Below, piece after piece: positions 2,983-7,069 of a stretch of DNA of 7,069 nt. The DNA is taken from IMG/VR virus record IMGVR_UViG_2695420687_000003; one strand, 5' to 3'. The number at the start of each line of letters is the position of its first letter. Within the stretch, counting starts at the first letter, position 1. Below the pieces are notes generated by a model that was not told the DNA's origin, ran no database searches, and saw only the letters and a list, made by a program, of their open reading frames with translations. The stretch comes from a virus (lineage: Duplodnaviria; Heunggongvirae; Uroviricota; Caudoviricetes). A program made the position numbers and the translations under genes.

Positions 2983-3001
2983 TCACGCTCCAGAAACGAC
3001 A

Positions 3002-3021
3002 AAACCGCCCTGAGGCGGTTT
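3002..3021 (-). terminator. GC-rich hairpin (8-bp stem, 4-nt loop) in the I-J intergenic space, followed on the minus-strand transcript by a U-rich run; possible partial intrinsic terminator or RNA stability element
   Basis: Plus-strand aaaccgcc-ctga-ggcggttt is a perfect inverted repeat. On the minus-strand RNA it reads AAACCGCC UCAG GGCGGUUU followed by UGUCGUUUCU. It lies 19 nt after the I stop and about 22 nt before the J start. Confidence 0.3.
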
Positions 3022-3039
3022 CACATAAAACATTTTGCA

Positions 3040-3681
3040 TCAGCGACCAATCACCACAACCTGACCACCATCCCCTTCGTCTGCCGTGCTGATCTCCTGA
3101 GAAACCACGCGTGACCCCACGCGCATTTCACCGTACAGAACAGGCAGAACATTGCCCTGGGCAACCATGTTGTCCAGTGACGAGAAATACATGTTCTGCT
3201 TACCGTTATCCGTTGTCTGTGTACGGGGAGTTCTGGCTTTCGGTGCCAGCATCTGTGCAACACCGCCAAGCGTCATCGCCGCACCCATTGAAAAGAGAAT
3301 GTCACTGAAAGCGATACTGATCCCCGGCATCCAGATTGCCGTAGCAATCAACGCCGCACCCAGCACCGCCTGAAACACACCGCCACTTTTTGCTCCCGCA
3401 AGACGCGGTACGATGTGGATCACTGCACTATTTGCCAGCGGCTCATTAAGACGGGATGATAATTCGGTTTCGCCTGCATCACGCCCGGCAATCCGTACCT
3501 GATACCAGCCGTCGCTCAGTTTCTGACGAAACGCCGGGATCTGTGTGGCCAGCGCACGGATAGCTTCGGCCCCCGTTTTTACACGAAGGTCGATGCGGCG
3601 GCCAAATCGTTGTAAATCCCCGTAAAGGCAGATGCGTGCCATGCCCGGTGACGCCAGAGGGAGTGTGTGCGTCGCTGCCAT
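3040..3681 (-). CDS. I: Tail tip assembly protein (lambda I-like), 213 aa
   Basis: Translation MAATHTLPLASPGMARICLYGDLQRFGRRIDLRVKTGAEAIRALATQ... and C-terminus ...KQNMYFSSLDNMVAQGNVLPVLYGEMRVGSRVVSQEISTADEGDGGQVVVIGR match lambda gpI as recalled. Hydrophobic Gly/Ala-rich central segment. Start codon overlaps the 3' end of K by 103 nt, as in lambda. Confidence 0.9.
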   Translation of the reverse strand: MAATHTLPLASPGMARICLYGDLQRFGRRIDLRVKTGAEAIRALATQIPAFRQKLSDGWYQVRIAGRDAGETELSSRLNEPLANSAVIHIVPRLAGAKSGGVFQAVLGAALIATAIWMPGISIAFSDILFSMGAAMTLGGVAQMLAPKARTPRTQTTDNGKQNMYFSSLDNMVAQGNVLPVLYGEMRVGSRVVSQEISTADEGDGGQVVVIGR

Positions 3682-4322
3682 TTGTCGGTGTACCTCTCTC
3701 GTTTACTCAGTTGTTCAGGAATATGGTGCAGCAGCTCGCCGTCGCCGCAGTAAATTGCGGCGTGATTCGGCACCGATGAACCAAAACAGCACAGCAGCAC
3801 ATCGCCCGGCTGCGCCGCTGACAACGGCACCTGATACAGCCCTGTGGCCTCCAGATTATCCAGATAGAGATTCTGACCGTTACGCCACCAGTCATCCTCA
3901 CGATGAAAATCCGGCATCTCAATCCCCGCCAGATGGTAAGCGTCCCGGAACAGCGTGTAACAGTCCGTCACCCCGTGCTCAAAGCGCCGCCCGGTAAGAT
4001 GTGGCACACAGCGGAACTTGTGAATCGCCCCCCGGCAGACCAGCCACCACGGCAAATCACTCTGCACCTGCAACCGCCGGTCAGCCTCACTCAGCCAGGG
4101 CAGACCACCGGGGTGGCTGTGAACCAGCGCCACAATCCCACCCTGCATCTCTGCCCGCAGCCAGTCCTCCGGCGACATCCGGAAATACTCCTCCGGCTCA
4201 CCGGAGATATTCACGCAGGGAAAATATCTGTCCCCCTCCGACGTTCTCACCACGAAGCCGCACGACTCCGCTGGCGCACATCGTCTGGCGTGCGCCAGAA
4301 TCGCTGATTCTGTCTCTGTCAT
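3579..4322 (-). CDS. K: Tail tip assembly protein (lambda K-like) with N-terminal MPN/JAMM-type motif and C-terminal NlpC/P60-type Cys/His motif; long 247-aa reading frame (a shorter form starting at the internal ATG at 4176-4178 would be 199 aa)
   Basis: Translation MTETESAILAHARRCAPAESCGFVV...HSHPGGLPWLSEAD (H-x-H-x7-S-x2-D JAMM signature) ...HGVTDCYTLFRDAY...HAAIYCGDGELLHH (NlpC/P60-like Cys/His). Strong similarity to lambda gpK as recalled. The ATG at 4320-4322 lies 6 nt after the L stop codon. Confidence 0.85.
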   Translation of the reverse strand: MTETESAILAHARRCAPAESCGFVVRTSEGDRYFPCVNISGEPEEYFRMSPEDWLRAEMQGGIVALVHSHPGGLPWLSEADRRLQVQSDLPWWLVCRGAIHKFRCVPHLTGRRFEHGVTDCYTLFRDAYHLAGIEMPDFHREDDWWRNGQNLYLDNLEATGLYQVPLSAAQPGDVLLCCFGSSVPNHAAIYCGDGELLHHIPEQLSKRERYTDKWQRRTHSLWRHRAWHASAFTGIYNDLAAASTFV

Positions 4323-4327
4323 GGGAT

Positions 4328-5026
4328 TTACTGCGAAAGTTTGTTAATGGAAAGGTAACCGCCAAAGTTGCCGACGTTATTGCGGAACTTACAACCGCTC
4401 AGGCACTTGCTGCATTTATCCTTCGTGATATCGGACGTCGGCTGGTCATATTCATCCGCGACCGCCGGACCGTGATAACCGCACTCATCGCCGCGATAGG
4501 TCCAGGTGCAGGTGTTGGCCAGCATGATACGTCCCGGAAAAACAGCGCCGTCCGTTTCCGTCGGCGTGGACAGTACAAAAGAGGCACTCACCGCGCTCAG
4601 TTCGCTGCACTGCTCGATGCGCCAGCGACTGATCACCTCCTGCTCCGGATCGGCGTCGCTGTTTCCGTTGACGAAGTTCACCGCATCCAGAAAACGAGCG
4701 TAAACCTTACGCCGGACAACCGTTCCGCCGACCAGACTCTGCATATCTTCCACCATCCCGGTGACCATGCCGTACAGGTTAGAGACTGCCAGCGTGGGCC
4801 GCGTACTGGTGCCTTTGCCATTCAGTTCAAAACCACTCCCCTGAATGGGATACGGCTGATACTGTCGCCCCTGCCATGTGACCGGCTCACCTTTTTCGTT
4901 CAGCTCATTACAGAAAAAATAACGTTCTCCACCGACCTCTGTCAGGTCGATTTCCCAGAGCACCACGCTGGCCGACTGCTCCGCACGGGTGCATTCATTC
5001 AGTGTTTCCTGCCGGATATCCTGCAT
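4328..5026 (-). CDS. L: Tail tip protein (lambda L-like), 232 aa, with C-terminal cysteine cluster
   Basis: Translation MQDIRQETLNECTRAEQSASVVLWEIDLTEVGGERYFFCNE...DKCSKCLSGCKFRNNVGNFGGYLSINKLSQ, near-identical to lambda gpL as recalled. Start ATG overlaps the M stop codon (ATGA overlap at 5024-5028). Confidence 0.92.
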   Translation of the reverse strand: MQDIRQETLNECTRAEQSASVVLWEIDLTEVGGERYFFCNELNEKGEPVTWQGRQYQPYPIQGSGFELNGKGTSTRPTLAVSNLYGMVTGMVEDMQSLVGGTVVRRKVYARFLDAVNFVNGNSDADPEQEVISRWRIEQCSELSAVSASFVLSTPTETDGAVFPGRIMLANTCTWTYRGDECGYHGPAVADEYDQPTSDITKDKCSKCLSGCKFRNNVGNFGGYLSINKLSQ

Positions 5027-5355
5027 CAGTTCACCACCTGTTCAAACTCTGCGCTGAACTCAACACGCAGCATACTGACCCGCGACGACCATTTTGCGCA
5101 GGTCACCTTTATCTGCCTGTAACCATAAGGCGGCGTCCACAGAAAAGCCTTCCAGCCCCCGTGCTCAGCCAGAAACGACTCCAGCGCCGTGGCCTCCTCA
5201 CGGGAGACAGACAGCGTCACGCTGTACGTTTTCAGGTCAGCGTTCAGCCCGGCAGGCGCACGCTGGGAATAGCCATCACCAAAGCGCACCTCCCTGACGG
5301 AAGGAGCCGATGTCACATCCATCCCGGGTTTCACTTTCCAGCGGAAGGTTTTCAT
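5026..5355 (-). CDS. M: Minor tail protein (lambda M-like), 109 aa
   Basis: Translation MKTFRWKVKPGMDVTSAPSVREVRFGDGYSQRAPAGLNADLKTYSVTLS...KVTCAKWSSRVSMLRVEFSAEFEQVVN matches lambda gpM as recalled. Start ATG overlaps the H stop codon (ATGA at 5352-5355). Confidence 0.92.
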   Translation of the reverse strand: MKTFRWKVKPGMDVTSAPSVREVRFGDGYSQRAPAGLNADLKTYSVTLSVSREEATALESFLAEHGGWKAFLWTPPYGYRQIKVTCAKWSSRVSMLRVEFSAEFEQVVN

Positions 5356-6836
5356 CGTCCACCTCCGGAGAACAAGCCACCATCACGCATCTGTGCCTGA
5401 ATTTCATCACGGGCACCCTTGCGGGCCATGTCATACACAGCCTTCAGCGCCTGTGGTCCAATCTGCCCGTTCGTGCCGTCGTTGTTAATCACCACATGGT
5501 TATTCTGCTCAAACTTCCCGGACGCCTGCGACCGGCTGTCCGCCAGACTGCCCGGTGTACCGACATAACCGCCGGTGGCATAGCCGCGCATCAGCCGGTA
5601 AAGATTCCCCACGCCAATCCGGCTGGTTGCCTCCTTCGTGAAGACAAACTCACCACGGTGAACAATCCCCGCTGGCTCATATTTGCCGCCGGTTCCCGTA
5701 AATCCTCCGGTCGAAAAATGGAATTTCGCCGCAGCTGCCTGAATGGCTGTACCGCCTGATGCGGATGCGCCGCCACCAACAGCCCCGCCAATGGCGCTAC
5801 CGATACTCCCGACAATCCCCACCATTGCCTGCTTAAGCAGAATTTCTGTCATCATGGACAGCACGGAACGGGTGAAGCTGCGCCAGTTCTGCTCACTGCC
5901 GGTCAGCATCGCTGCCATATTCTGTGCAATACCGTCAAAGGTCTGCGTGGCCACGCTTTTAACCTGCGAAAAACTGTCCGTCGCACTTTCTGCCCACTCG
6001 CCCCAGCCGGACTTCAGACCGGCCATCCAGCTTCCACGAAGCTGCTCCTCCGCAGACCAGGTGTTCTTCAGTGCAGATGTGGCCTTCGCCAGCGCATCCG
6101 GATTATCACCGTACACGTCACGAAGGCGCTGCTCTTCCGACTCCCGCTGCGCCTGACGGTCGGTGAGGCCCCGCGCCTGGGCACTGATTGCCGCCTGCTT
6201 CGCGCCCTGCTGCTGCTCAAACCGCGCAGCCTGCTGTGCCAGCTCATTCAGCCGTTTCTGGTGTTCAACTTTGTCTCCCAGCTCAGCCAGCTGGCGTTTG
6301 TACTCCAGCGTCTCTTTCTCATGGGTCAGCAGGGATTTTTCCTGCTCAGATAACTGCCGTTTCGTGGCTGCCTCTTTCAGGACCGCATACTGATTTTCCG
6401 CTTTCCATAAATCGCGACGCTGCTGGCTGATTTTCTCATTCGCACCGCTGTGTTTTTCCAGCGTCCGGAGCTCGGTTTCAAGCGCCAGCAGGGCAGCATG
6501 CGCCTGGTCTTCCTGACGCTCACCGGCTGACACTTTGACTCCTGACGACTTCGGCTTTTTCAGCGTCGATTCATAATCCTTTTTCGCCGCCGCCATCAGC
6601 GTGTTGTAATCCGCCTGCAGGATTTTCCCGTCTTTCAGGGCCTTATTCAGTTCTTCCTGACGGGCGGTATATTTCTCCAGCGGCGTCAGCAGACGCTCAT
6701 ACCCCTTCTGCGCCTCTCCGGTATACTTCAGCTGTGATGCGTCCCGTTCGGCCCGGTCCCTGGCGGCCAGTTCACCGAACAAAAAATATTTACACGACGC
6801 ATCATTTCCCTTTCCTAAGTCGCGAAAGCAATTCAA
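5352..6836 (-). CDS. H: Tail tape measure protein (lambda H-like), C-terminal portion only; reading frame is N-terminally truncated relative to full-length H (~850 aa) and is probably a gene remnant
   Basis: From about residue 33 of the ORF (ASQLKYTGEAQKGYERLLTPLEKYTARQEELNKALKDGKILQADYNTLMAAAKK...) to the C-terminus (...GSIGSAIGGAVGGGASASGG...YDMARKGARDEIQAQMRDGGLFSGGGR) the protein follows the C-terminal ~460 residues of lambda gpH as recalled. The first ~30 codons (MNCFRDLGKGNDASCKYFLFGELAARDRAERD) have no counterpart I recognise, and the reading frame is closed by stop codons immediately upstream. By my reading the first codon is TTG, not ATG, with no Shine-Dalgarno at suitable spacing. 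My hand count of the start is off by one from the track coordinate, so a search should confirm. Confidence 0.75.
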   Translation of the reverse strand: MNCFRDLGKGNDASCKYFLFGELAARDRAERDASQLKYTGEAQKGYERLLTPLEKYTARQEELNKALKDGKILQADYNTLMAAAKKDYESTLKKPKSSGVKVSAGERQEDQAHAALLALETELRTLEKHSGANEKISQQRRDLWKAENQYAVLKEAATKRQLSEQEKSLLTHEKETLEYKRQLAELGDKVEHQKRLNELAQQAARFEQQQGAKQAAISAQARGLTDRQAQRESEEQRLRDVYGDNPDALAKATSALKNTWSAEEQLRGSWMAGLKSGWGEWAESATDSFSQVKSVATQTFDGIAQNMAAMLTGSEQNWRSFTRSVLSMMTEILLKQAMVGIVGSIGSAIGGAVGGGASASGGTAIQAAAAKFHFSTGGFTGTGGKYEPAGIVHRGEFVFTKEATSRIGVGNLYRLMRGYATGGYVGTPGSLADSRSQASGKFEQNNHVVINNDGTNGQIGPQALKAVYDMARKGARDEIQAQMRDGGLFSGGGR

Positions 6837-6980
6837 TTATTATAGCTTTTCCCAGACTTTTCGTTTCTAACAGTGAATTTCAAACGGTTTTTATGCCAGG
6901 TGTCCCCCCCCCCTTGATTCAATGTTGAGACAGAACTCAATCTCTGCCGGGATAACATGGCTTCCCTTAAGCTATCGGCC
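6837..6980. other. AT-rich apparently non-coding junction segment upstream of the truncated H gene; no ORF of any length in the H-upstream direction; possible prophage deletion or rearrangement breakpoint
   Basis: Composition shifts from GC-rich phage-like coding sequence to AT-rich sequence (aattcaattattatagcttttcccagacttttcgtttctaacagtgaatttcaaacggtttttatg...). The H reading frame is closed by tandem stops (TAA TAA) just upstream of its first codon. A -10-like TATAAT occurs on the minus strand at about 6840-6845, but without a convincing -35. Confidence 0.5.
6904..6913. repeat. C10 homopolymer tract (G10 on the opposite strand) in the non-coding region upstream of the truncated tape-measure gene
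   Basis: Directly visible: tgt-cccccccccc-ttgattc. It is the only long homopolymer in the window. Confidence 0.9.
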
Positions 6981-7069
6981 TTACAATAGCGCCAGCAAGA
7001 AAACCAGTTCCCTCAGTTCAATAGCCGCCCCCAACGTATCGCCAGTTTGCCCTCCCAGAGTACGTTTAA

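What the first reader, a model, noticed from the sequence alone, without database searches (positions are those of the whole stretch)
3579..3681. 103-nt out-of-frame overlap between K (3' end) and I (5' end)
The I start codon (3679-3681) lies 103 nt inside the K reading frame, in a different frame, so about 34 codons are dual-coding. This is the same arrangement that I recall for lambda K/I, so it is conserved rather than novel. It constrains evolution of both proteins and implies coupled or internal initiation for I. Together with the ATGA overlaps at H/M and M/L it indicates a tightly co-regulated tail-tip operon.
Basis: seen in the sequence. Interest (0 to 1): 0.2.

Follow-up and report, generated by a model that had tools for sequence, protein, structure and literature searches.

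The report
Lambda-type K/I tail gene overlap
This is the known overlap between two phage lambda tail-assembly genes, K and I, read in two frames from the same DNA; it is real, widely conserved and ordinary, although comparison with relatives suggests it grew in two steps.

Summary
On the minus strand, K (3579-4322, 247 aa) and I (3040-3681, 213 aa) share 103 nt, with I in the -1 frame. Phage lambda is annotated with the same 103-nt overlap.

Which I start is used is disputed in public annotation: RefSeq/PGAP starts a 97%-identical E. coli prophage I at Met14, giving a 64-nt overlap. Met1 has a strong Shine-Dalgarno site (-9.3 kcal/mol) and Met14 has none (-1.5).

Across 112 unique junctions, a 58-64 nt core overlap is shared by a broad gammaproteobacterial prophage clade. 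There I starts at the Met14-equivalent codon, using an SD built from K's Trp-Arg codons. The lambda group lost that SD and gained a new SD and ATG 39 nt upstream. More distant phages have 0-26 nt overlaps, or K and I separated.

In the lambda group the core evolves mainly under I-frame constraint. K's tail length is nevertheless conserved more than I-only constraint predicts.

There is no slippery site and no unusual RNA structure, so I is most likely translated by internal initiation.

Verdict: already known, low interest.

The parts
3579..4322 (-). Gene K (247 aa): tail-tip assembly protein with Prok-JAB (residues 4-98) and NlpC/P60 (residues 111-224) peptidase domains. The intact JAMM motif (E19, H68-x-H70, S78, D81) is read from the sequence.
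   Evidence: ORF; Pfam; 96% identical to lambda-derived K over 247 aa (H32); RefSeq annotates the same 744-nt CDS in E. coli O55:H7.
3040..3681 (-). Gene I (213 aa from Met1): 13-residue leader, ubiquitin-like N-terminal domain (about residues 14-101), hydrophobic segment, and C-terminal plug domain.
   Evidence: ORF; Pfam Lambda_tail_I covers residues 14-97; full-length match to lambda gpI chains in PDB 8iyk; domain interpretation from Iyer et al. 2006 and the cryo-EM papers.
3579..3681 (-). The 103-nt dual-coding segment: K codons 214-247 plus stop, and I codons 1-34 plus the first base of codon 35. I is in the -1 frame relative to K.
   Evidence: identical geometry in lambda.
3643..3681 (-). 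Leader layer of the overlap: I codons 1-13 (MAATHTLPLASPG) over K codons 214-227, which include the last NlpC/P60 beta-strand. Present only in the lambda-like group and evolves as K-coding DNA.
   Evidence: Diverged I proteins lack it. Most variable position is K position 3 (0.056 vs 0.024 and 0.016). I residues 1-11 have pLDDT 28. K strand 219-225 is modelled with fair confidence.
3579..3642 (-). Core layer of the overlap (64 nt): I codons 14-34 (first beta-hairpin of the ubiquitin-like domain) over the K C-terminal tail (residues 228-247) and the K stop. Conserved as a 58-64 nt overlap across a broad clade.
   Evidence: Geometry in 151 loci. Most variable position in the lambda group is I position 3 (0.081 vs 0.035 and 0.014). 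I beta1 at 15-19 and beta2 at 29-32. K tail length is conserved against the resampling expectation.
3692..3700 (-). Shine-Dalgarno site for I (GAGAGAGGT), built from K codons Arg208-Glu209-Arg210 (CGA GAG AGG), 10 nt upstream of the Met1 ATG.
   Evidence: Duplex energy with the anti-SD is -9.3 kcal/mol (background mean -2.5, 5th percentile -7.6). AGG is used at Arg210 in 74 of 75 unique lambda-group sequences, and only 8.6% of K-synonymous resamples give an SD this strong.
3703..3705 (-). TAA in the I frame, 8 codons upstream of the I ATG. It closes the I frame upstream, so any K-to-I frame switch would have to occur within about 125 nt.
   Evidence: Read; the I frame open from this stop is shown (WIN row).
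3640..3642 (-). Met14 ATG of I: the ancestral start position, used as the start by RefSeq/PGAP in close relatives. In this window it has no Shine-Dalgarno site.
   Evidence: Codon at this position across 112 unique sequences: ATG 99, GTG 10, CTG 2, TTG 1. SD -1.5 here versus -8.0 in diverged relatives. PGAP annotation.
3651..3656 (-). Relic of the ancestral I ribosome-binding site: K codons Trp223-Arg224 read TGG CGT here, whereas diverged relatives read TGG AGG or TGG AGA (a GGAGG-type SD 8-9 nt before their I start).
   Evidence: (example sequences).
3579..3581 (-). K stop codon TAA (TGA in lambda). It lies across I codons Val34-Lys35 (GTA AAA).

Best explanation
The segment is the genuine K/I gene overlap of a lambda-type tail-tip operon (H-M-L-K-I-J, minus strand).

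Shown: the same 103 nt encode the end of K (last NlpC/P60 strand plus a roughly 20-residue C-terminal tail) and, one base out of phase, the beginning of I (a 13-residue leader plus the first beta-hairpin of its ubiquitin-like domain).

Inferred mechanism: I is translated by independent internal initiation. Ribosomes bind a strong Shine-Dalgarno sequence (GAGAGAGGT, 3700-3692) that is itself written in K codons, and start at ATG 3681-3679. Frameshifting and termination-reinitiation are not involved. K has no SD of its own and begins 5 nt after the L stop, so it probably depends on ribosomes coming from L. That arrangement would let the structural protein I be made independently of the non-structural K.

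Inferred history, in two steps. (1) In the ancestor of a broad gammaproteobacterial prophage clade, K was extended by about 16-19 codons across the first 19-21 codons of I, giving a 58-64 nt overlap. I then started at the Met14-equivalent codon, using an SD made from K's Trp-Arg codons (TGG AGG). (2) In the lambda lineage that SD was lost (AGG changed to CGT), and a new SD and ATG 39 nt upstream took over, lengthening the overlap to 103 nt.

According to the literature prediction, the two proteins are functional partners: the K peptidase is proposed to process I's ubiquitin-like domain. That link was not tested here.
For: ORFs and frames. Domain identities. Same overlap in lambda.

Start and SD: Met1 -9.3 versus Met14 -1.5 kcal/mol in the window. 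Lambda-group means are -9.2 and -1.5; diverged-group Met14-equivalent mean is -8.0; background mean is -2.5. The SD relocation is visible in the sequences, AGG is used at Arg210 in 74 of 75 unique sequences, and only 8.6% of K-synonymous resamples give such an SD. Two E. albertii-type sequences have CTG at Met14 but keep the Met1 ATG.

Geometry: 151 overlapping junctions, all with I in the same frame relative to K. In most diverged loci the I frame is closed 1-2 codons before the Met14-equivalent start. In 13 outgroup phages with both genes in the locus (K 27-41% identical), K ends 4-12 residues after the RH motif (21 in one), and the genes overlap by 0-26 nt or are separated.

Constraint: a K-type codon-position profile in the leader and an I-type profile in the core. 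All 3 window-versus-lambda differences in the overlap are silent in I. K-frame openness: only 25% of I-synonymous resamples stay open as far as observed in the diverged group, yet 34 of 37 unique sequences have exactly 18 codons. Mannheimia-type phages keep the K tail even where I has moved away and the -1 frame is full of stops.

No slippery heptamer in the window or the lambda group. RNA fold z = -0.09. Operon SD strengths, with K at +0.7. Functional link between K and I: Iyer et al. 2006. In virions gpI is seen only from residue 101 or 134 onward, and gpK is absent.
Against: There is no direct experimental evidence for the I N-terminus. RefSeq/PGAP and many database entries start I at Met14. 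The SD-to-ATG spacing at Met1 (10 nt) is at the long end of the usual range. The Met1 ATG and the open leader frame are largely by-products of K coding (88% and 84% of K-synonymous resamples), so only the SD argues for selection on this start. The conservation statistics are not corrected for shared ancestry, and the resampling pooled codon usage from AT-rich and GC-rich hosts. The AlphaFold model gives the K tail low confidence (pLDDT 50-62), so a structural role for it is unproven. The direction of evolutionary change is inferred from outgroup comparison, not from a rooted phylogeny.
Confidence: 0.8

Rival explanations
1. I actually starts at Met14 (3642-3640), as RefSeq/PGAP annotates close relatives. 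The real overlap would then be 64 nt, and the 13-codon leader would be an untranslated by-product of K coding.
For: Met14 is the ancestral start position: ATG or GTG in 109 of 112 unique sequences, and the only possible start in most diverged relatives. The Pfam I domain begins at residue 14. PGAP annotates a 200-aa I in a 97%-identical prophage, and many database entries are 200 aa. The leader shows no I-frame selection signature and is predicted disordered. The Met1 ATG and the open frame are expected from K coding alone in 84-88% of resamples.
Against: Met14 has no Shine-Dalgarno complementarity in the whole lambda group (-1.5 kcal/mol, weaker than the background mean of -2.5), whereas Met1 has -9.2. 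The ancestral SD was specifically destroyed (TGG AGG changed to TGG CGT), and a new one using the AGG Arg codon (rare in E. coli, from general knowledge) is kept in 74 of 75 sequences. Two natural variants have CTG at Met14 and retain Met1. The two starts may both be used, and this cannot be excluded.
Confidence: 0.2
2. The overlap is real but only the I frame matters. On this view the K tail (residues ~228-247) is a functionless read-through left by loss of an ancestral stop codon, so the region is not truly dual-function.
For: Outgroup K proteins end 4-12 residues after the RH motif and function without the tail. In the lambda group the most variable positions in the core are I third positions, which are K second positions. 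All window-versus-lambda differences there change K but not I. The tail has low model confidence. In the lambda group the K frame would stay open by chance in 82% of resamples.
Against: In the diverged group only about 25% of I-synonymous resamples keep the K frame open as far as observed (median simulated stop after 2 codons), yet 34 of 37 unique sequences have exactly 18 codons and none is shorter than 16. All three codon positions are similarly variable in the core in the diverged group, which suggests both frames are constrained. Mannheimia-type phages retain a 15-19 residue tail with a shared KLDF motif after I moved 290-2300 nt away. In 30 K proteins of 67% identity or more, W228, T234, G235, I236, N238 and D239 are invariant, although this is confounded by the I frame.
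Confidence: 0.3
3. The overlap serves programmed -1 ribosomal frameshifting, producing a K-I fusion protein by analogy with lambda G/GT.
For: I is in the -1 frame relative to K. K-I fusion proteins exist in databases and one was noted by Iyer et al. 2006. Some AT-rich Pasteurellaceae relatives carry A_AAT_TTN or T_TTA_AAT heptamers in the K frame.
Against: No X_XXY_YYZ heptamer occurs anywhere in the overlap of the window or of any lambda-group sequence. No stable RNA structure is present (z = -0.09). The database fusions are singletons or near-singletons, each switching frame at a different point, as expected from random indels or assembly errors. I has its own strong SD and start. The heptamers in Pasteurellaceae follow simply from Lys-Phe (AAA TTT) in I and are not conserved across the clade.
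Confidence: 0.02

Closest known systems
Bacteriophage lambda K/I gene overlap (NC_001416: K 14276-14875, I 14773-15444)
   Same: Same genes (K is 96% identical to the lambda-derived DE3 K; the I leader and first 46 residues are identical to lambda). Same 103-nt length, same -1 frame relation, same SD and start context, same gene order H-M-L-K-I-J.
   Different: Three substitutions inside the overlap (two change K: H229R and A241V; one changes the stop from TAA to TGA), all silent in I. The window's K is an intact 247-aa ORF, whereas the lambda reference has a 1-nt deletion and annotates only 199 aa. The window's I is 213 aa versus 223 aa in lambda, through a 10-residue difference in the hydrophobic linker. 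The window's H is truncated.
K/I junctions of Pasteurellaceae, Orbaceae and other Enterobacterales prophages (for example Pasteurella, Haemophilus, Gilliamella, Enterobacter, Erwinia, Hafnia)
   Same: Same frame relation. The K tail overprints the first beta-hairpin of I. A 58-64 nt core overlap is equivalent to window 3642-3579.
   Different: In most, the I frame is closed 1-2 codons upstream of the Met14-equivalent codon. The SD is TGGAGG or TGGAGA, made from K Trp-Arg codons. There is no 13-codon leader.
HK97, T1-like (Drexlerviridae), Dhillonvirus and other distant K/I pairs
   Same: Homologous K (JAB + NlpC/P60) and I (ubiquitin-like + C-terminal domain) in the same order. The genes often touch or overlap slightly.
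   Different: K ends 4-12 residues after the RH motif. The overlap is only 0-26 nt and never reaches I's first beta-strand, or the genes are separated by inserted genes or terminators.
Lambda G/GT programmed -1 frameshift
   Same: Two tail-assembly reading frames overlapping with a -1 relation in the same operon.
   Different: G/GT uses a slippery heptamer (GGGAAAG in lambda, from general knowledge), and T has no independent start. Here there is no slippery site and I has its own SD and ATG. The two products are separate proteins.

Membership tests
Lambda-type tail-tip assembly K/I gene pair | K protein with an N-terminal JAB/MPN metalloprotease domain and a C-terminal NlpC/P60 (C40) peptidase domain | tested here: met
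   Pfam Prok-JAB 1.7e-13 (residues 4-98) and NLPC_P60 5.7e-13 (residues 111-224). JAMM motif residues and the Cys121/His187/His199 positions are invariant in alignments.
Lambda-type tail-tip assembly K/I gene pair | I protein with the Lambda_tail_I (ubiquitin-like) N-terminal domain and the C-terminal plug domain seen in lambda tail structures | tested here: met
   Pfam PF06805 5.8e-23. Full-length match to gpI of PDB 8iyk, E = 1.3e-107.
Lambda-type tail-tip assembly K/I gene pair | Gene order H-M-L-K-I-J on one strand | tested here: met
   Pfam hits for the tape-measure C-terminus, Phage_min_tail (M) and Phage_tail_L. J N-terminus [15 protein letters not shown] begins at 2979. Same order in lambda and E. 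coli prophages.
Lambda-type tail-tip assembly K/I gene pair | I start inside the K reading frame, -1 frame, 103-nt overlap as in lambda | tested here: met
Lambda-type tail-tip assembly K/I gene pair | K peptidase processes the ubiquitin-like domain of I (predicted functional link) | not testable with these tools
   A prediction of Iyer et al. 2006. Compatible with gpI being resolved only from residue 101 or 134 in virions and gpK being absent, but no cleavage data were found.
Programmed -1 ribosomal frameshift site | Slippery heptamer X XXY YYZ in the upstream (K) frame within the overlap | tested here: not met
   No heptamer in the window or in any lambda-group sequence.
Programmed -1 ribosomal frameshift site | Stimulatory RNA structure downstream of the shift site | tested here: not met
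   Fold of 3560-3760 has z-score -0.09, and 101 of 200 shuffles fold at least as well.
Programmed -1 ribosomal frameshift site | Downstream frame lacks its own initiation signals | tested here: not met
   A strong SD (-9.3 kcal/mol) lies 10 nt upstream of the I ATG.
Overprinted (overlap created by extension of one gene over an older one) | One of the two overlapping coding segments is absent from outgroup homologues while the other is ancestral | tested here: met
   The K tail beyond about 4-12 residues after RH is absent in the outgroup phages analysed, while I's beta1-beta2 is present in all. The I leader is absent outside the lambda group.
Overprinted (overlap created by extension of one gene over an older one) | The younger frame shows weaker purifying selection than the older frame | tested here: inconclusive
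   In the lambda group the I frame dominates in the core and the K frame in the leader. In the diverged group all three positions are similarly variable (0.44, 0.35, 0.41), which suggests both frames are constrained, but saturation and shared ancestry were not corrected for.

The most novel reading that the evidence does not exclude
The K C-terminal tail created by overprinting I's first beta-hairpin may not be junk. It could be a selected functional element of the peptidase, for example one that docks on or regulates access to I's ubiquitin-like domain. The overlap would then physically link an enzyme's regulatory tail to its substrate's N-terminus. Together with the later 39-nt upstream relocation of I's SD and start in the lambda lineage, this would be a documented stepwise growth of a dual-coding region between a peptidase and its putative substrate. 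It would also mean that RefSeq's Met14 start for lambda-type I proteins is wrong.
Probability: 0.3. Interest if true: 0.35.

Novelty: already known. Interest (0 to 1): 0.15.

Why it matters
The overlap itself has been visible in the lambda sequence for decades, so confirming it adds little. Three modest practical points follow.

1. Public annotation of the I start is inconsistent (Met1 in lambda records, Met14 in PGAP prophage annotation). The ribosome-binding-site evidence here favours Met1 for the lambda group and the Met14-equivalent codon for more distant relatives.

2. Anyone engineering K or I, for example recoding or refactoring lambda tails or tailocins, must respect a dual-coding segment that also contains I's SD written in K codons.

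3. The overlap joins a predicted peptidase (K) to its predicted ubiquitin-like substrate (I). The conserved K tail is therefore a cheap target to test in that still-unproven processing step.

Tried and rejected
1. Programmed -1 frameshift producing a K-I fusion: rejected. There is no slippery heptamer, no RNA structure, and the database fusions are singletons with different junctions.

2. The idea that the Mannheimia phage K tail carries a relic of an I start in its -1 frame (duplication on gene insertion): rejected, because that frame is full of stops. Budvicia's second I-like hit turned out to be a full tandem duplicate of I, not a relic.

3. A broad K alignment for the genome scan failed for lack of conserved stretches. 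A two-sequence alignment worked.

4. The lambda ribosome-profiling paper could not be retrieved by DOI or PMC id. The literature searches for K/I overlap found nothing specific.

5. Virion mass-spectrometry supplements list one gpI peptide without its sequence, so they say nothing about the N-terminus.

6. AlphaFold models were only moderately (K, pLDDT 74.6) or poorly (I, 46.6) confident. I did not run fold searches on them and draw no structural conclusion about the K tail.

7. NCBIfam gave no above-threshold family for either protein.

8. The terminator scan did not call the hairpin I saw between I and J.

Full report
**Observation.** All relevant genes are on the minus strand. One search lists ORFs at 3579-4322 (247 aa) and 3040-3681 (213 aa), which share 3579-3681 (103 nt). 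Read directly, K ends ...GAC AAA TGG CAG ... TTC GTG TAA, with its stop at 3581-3579. I begins ATG GCA GCG at 3681-3679. Its ATG is formed by the last base of K Lys214 and the first two bases of K Trp215, so I is in the -1 frame relative to K. A TAA at 3705-3703 closes the I frame 8 codons upstream. The finding's coordinates and description are correct.

**Identity.** Pfam assigns the 247-aa protein Prok-JAB (residues 4-98) plus NlpC/P60 (111-224), and the 213-aa protein Lambda_tail_I (residues 14-97). The upstream ORFs are M, L and the C-terminal part of the tape-measure protein H, and J starts at 2979. The lambda reference annotates K 14276-14875 and I 14773-15444, the same 103 nt. The window and lambda are near-identical across the junction. 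The locus is extremely common: 4409 of 5426 complete E. coli genomes have a match.

**Which start does I use?** This turned out to be a real question.
- RefSeq/PGAP annotates a 97%-identical E. coli O55:H7 prophage with the same 744-nt K but a 603-nt I starting at the Met14 codon, giving a 64-nt overlap. Protein databases hold both 213-215 aa and 200 aa forms.
- I scored pairing to the 16S anti-SD upstream of each candidate. In the window, Met1 scores -9.3 kcal/mol (GAGAGAGGT, 3700-3692, 10-nt spacer) and Met14 scores -1.5. The background mean is -2.5 and the 5th percentile is -7.6.
- Across 75 unique lambda-group sequences the means are -9.2 and -1.5.
- The SD is written in K codons Arg-Glu-Arg (CGA GAG AGG). 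The AGG codon (rare in E. coli, from general knowledge) is used in 74 of 75 sequences, and only 8.6% of K-synonymous resamples give an SD that strong.
- Two E. albertii-type sequences have CTG at Met14 but keep Met1.

**Conservation and history.** I collected K-I junctions from viral contigs, annotated phages and one genome per species, and anchored them on conserved residues in both proteins.
- 151 junctions are of the overlapping type, always with the same frame relation.
- The lambda group (Escherichia, Shigella, Citrobacter, Buttiauxella) has the upstream ATG with an open frame.
- A diverged group with K only 46-55% identical (Pasteurellaceae, the Orbaceae genera, Enterobacter, Erwinia, Pantoea, Hafnia, Atlantibacter, Budvicia, Photobacterium) has, in most loci, the I frame closed 1-2 codons before the Met14-equivalent codon. 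That codon is ATG or GTG, giving a 58-nt overlap (64-67 nt in a few). Their SD (mean -8.0) is TGGAGG or TGGAGA, made from K's conserved Trp-Arg codons.
- In the lambda group the same Arg is CGT, which abolishes that SD.
- In 13 more distant phages with both genes in the locus (K 27-41% identical: HK97, T1-like, Dhillonvirus, and Vibrio, Aeromonas, Ralstonia, Acinetobacter and Moraxella phages), K ends 4-12 residues after the RH motif (21 in one). I's first strand is always downstream of the K stop. The genes overlap by 0-26 nt or are separated by inserted genes.
- The simplest reading is two steps. First, K was extended over I's first 19-21 codons in the ancestor of the broad clade. Second, I's SD and start moved 39 nt upstream in the lambda lineage. 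The polarity rests on outgroup comparison, not on a rooted tree.

**Constraint in the two frames.**
- In the lambda group, the 39-nt leader varies most at K third positions (0.056 vs 0.024 and 0.016), like ordinary K-coding DNA. The 64-nt core varies most at I third positions (0.081 vs 0.035 and 0.014), like I-coding DNA. All classes are about three-fold lower than in the I-only flank.
- This matches the domain boundaries. The leader overlaps K's last NlpC/P60 strand (219-225), and I residues 1-11 are predicted disordered. The core overlaps I's beta1-beta2 hairpin (residues 15-19 and 29-32) and K's post-domain tail.
- All three window-versus-lambda differences in the overlap are silent in I.
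- The K tail nevertheless looks maintained. In the diverged group, resampling I-synonymous codons puts a K-frame stop after a median of 2 codons, and the frame stays open as far as observed in only 25% of trials. Yet 34 of 37 unique sequences have exactly 18 codons.
- Codon-position variability there is nearly flat.
- Mannheimia-type phages, in which I has moved 290-2300 nt away, keep a 15-19 residue tail with a shared KLDF motif, although the -1 frame there is full of stops.
- These statistics are not corrected for shared ancestry, and codon usage was pooled across hosts. I rate a functional K tail at only about 0.3-0.5.

**Mechanism.**
- There is no slippery heptamer in the window or the lambda group, and the local RNA fold is unremarkable (z = -0.09).
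- Database K-I fusion proteins are singletons that switch frame at different points. Programmed frameshifting is therefore rejected.
- Because the K stop is 100 nt downstream of the I start, termination-reinitiation is implausible. I is most likely made by de novo internal initiation at its own SD.
- K has no SD (+0.7) and starts 5 nt after the L stop, so K probably depends on ribosomes from L (inference). This would uncouple synthesis of the structural I protein (three copies per tail) from that of the non-structural K protein (not detected in virions).

**Functional context from the literature.** Iyer et al. 2006 identified I's N-terminal domain as ubiquitin-like with a C-terminal glycine, and predicted that K's JAB and/or NlpC/P60 domains release it. 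Cryo-EM studies resolve gpI only from residue 101 or 134-135. That is compatible with this prediction but does not prove it. No K structure has been solved.

**Comparison and verdict.** The feature meets every testable defining feature of the lambda K/I pair and fails those of a frameshift site. It is already known. The two-step history, the SD relocation and the annotation discrepancy are small additions. Interest is low (0.15).

Noticed in passing
L001 (lambda NC_001416) 4134-4364 and 4277-4876; window 4322-4180 region: The lambda reference lacks one base relative to the window near K codon 45 (window GAGGAGTATTTCC, lambda GAGG-CTATTTCC). This splits K into a 76-aa ORF carrying the JAB N-terminus (including the catalytic Glu) and the annotated 199-aa K. 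The window, the lambda-derived DE3 prophage and thousands of prophages have an intact 247-aa K, so the reference annotation looks truncated, either by a sequencing error or by a lab-strain frameshift.
   Followed up: partly
window 6778-7069: The H (tape-measure) frame is open only from about 6836, with many stops upstream. E. coli prophage homology ends near 6777. The remaining ~290 nt has one weak 95-nt hit near cobT/ldtA in a single E. coli genome, and the upstream frame ends in a non-phage-looking peptide (GGQTGDTLGAAIEL...). The window therefore seems to come from a tail-gene remnant truncated within H, in a genome outside the complete E. coli set.
   Followed up: partly
L168 (E. coli O55:H7 RM12579) 5259-5861, compared with window 3642: RefSeq/PGAP starts I at the Met14 codon (200 aa, 64-nt overlap) in close relatives, while lambda records use Met1 (103 nt). 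Protein databases contain both forms in large numbers.
   Followed up: yes
L120 (Budvicia aquatica) 3175-3717 and 3745-4311: Two full-length tandem I genes (180 and 188 aa). The first overlaps K by 67 nt; the second follows 28 nt after the first.
   Followed up: partly
L083, L129, L148, L152 (Mannheimia, Rodentibacter, Actinobacillus): K and I have been separated secondarily by 290-2300 nt (a terminator and small ORFs), yet K retains a 15-19 residue tail with a KLDF motif related to the overlapping-type Pasteurellaceae tails.
   Followed up: partly
L089-L101, L110, L111, L113, L114, L117, L119, L121, L126, L135 (genome-contig hits): Near-identical lambda K sequence occurs on low-coverage contigs, some about 48.5 kb long, in assemblies of unrelated organisms (Neobacillus, Shewanella, Bradyrhizobium, Paenibacillus, Streptomyces-group and others). 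This looks like lambda DNA contamination of those assemblies.
   Followed up: no
P0038, P0094, P0014, P0115, P0067 (database proteins): K-I fusion proteins of 348-428 aa carrying JAB and/or NlpC/P60 plus the Lambda_tail_I domain. Each switches frame at a different point in or near the overlap, and each is a singleton or near-singleton, consistent with sporadic indels or assembly errors.
   Followed up: yes
window 4320-4330: K has no Shine-Dalgarno complementarity (+0.7 kcal/mol), and its ATG lies 5 nt after the L stop (TAA ATCCC ATG). This suggests K translation depends on ribosomes terminating at L.
   Followed up: partly
window 3001-3018 (minus strand): A GC-rich hairpin followed by a T run (CCGCC-TCAG-GGCGG-TTTTGTCGTTT) sits between the I stop (3042-3040) and the J start (2979), resembling an intrinsic terminator. 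I saw it by eye, and the consensus terminator scan did not call it.
   Followed up: partly
window 3379-3399 (I residues 95-101, AGAKSGG): I's ubiquitin-like domain ends in Gly-Gly, and one cryo-EM study of the lambda tail resolves gpI from residue 101 onward. This coincides with the cleavage point predicted by Iyer et al. 2006, but no cleavage evidence was found.
   Followed up: no
Pasteurellaceae loci among L127-L149, 8-14 nt upstream of the I Gly21-equivalent codon: About 25 loci carry A_AAT_TTN or T_TTA_AAT heptamers in the K frame inside the overlap. These arise from Lys-Phe (AAA TTT) in I. They are formally slippery-like but are not conserved across the clade and are absent from the window.
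   Followed up: no
   Followed up: yes
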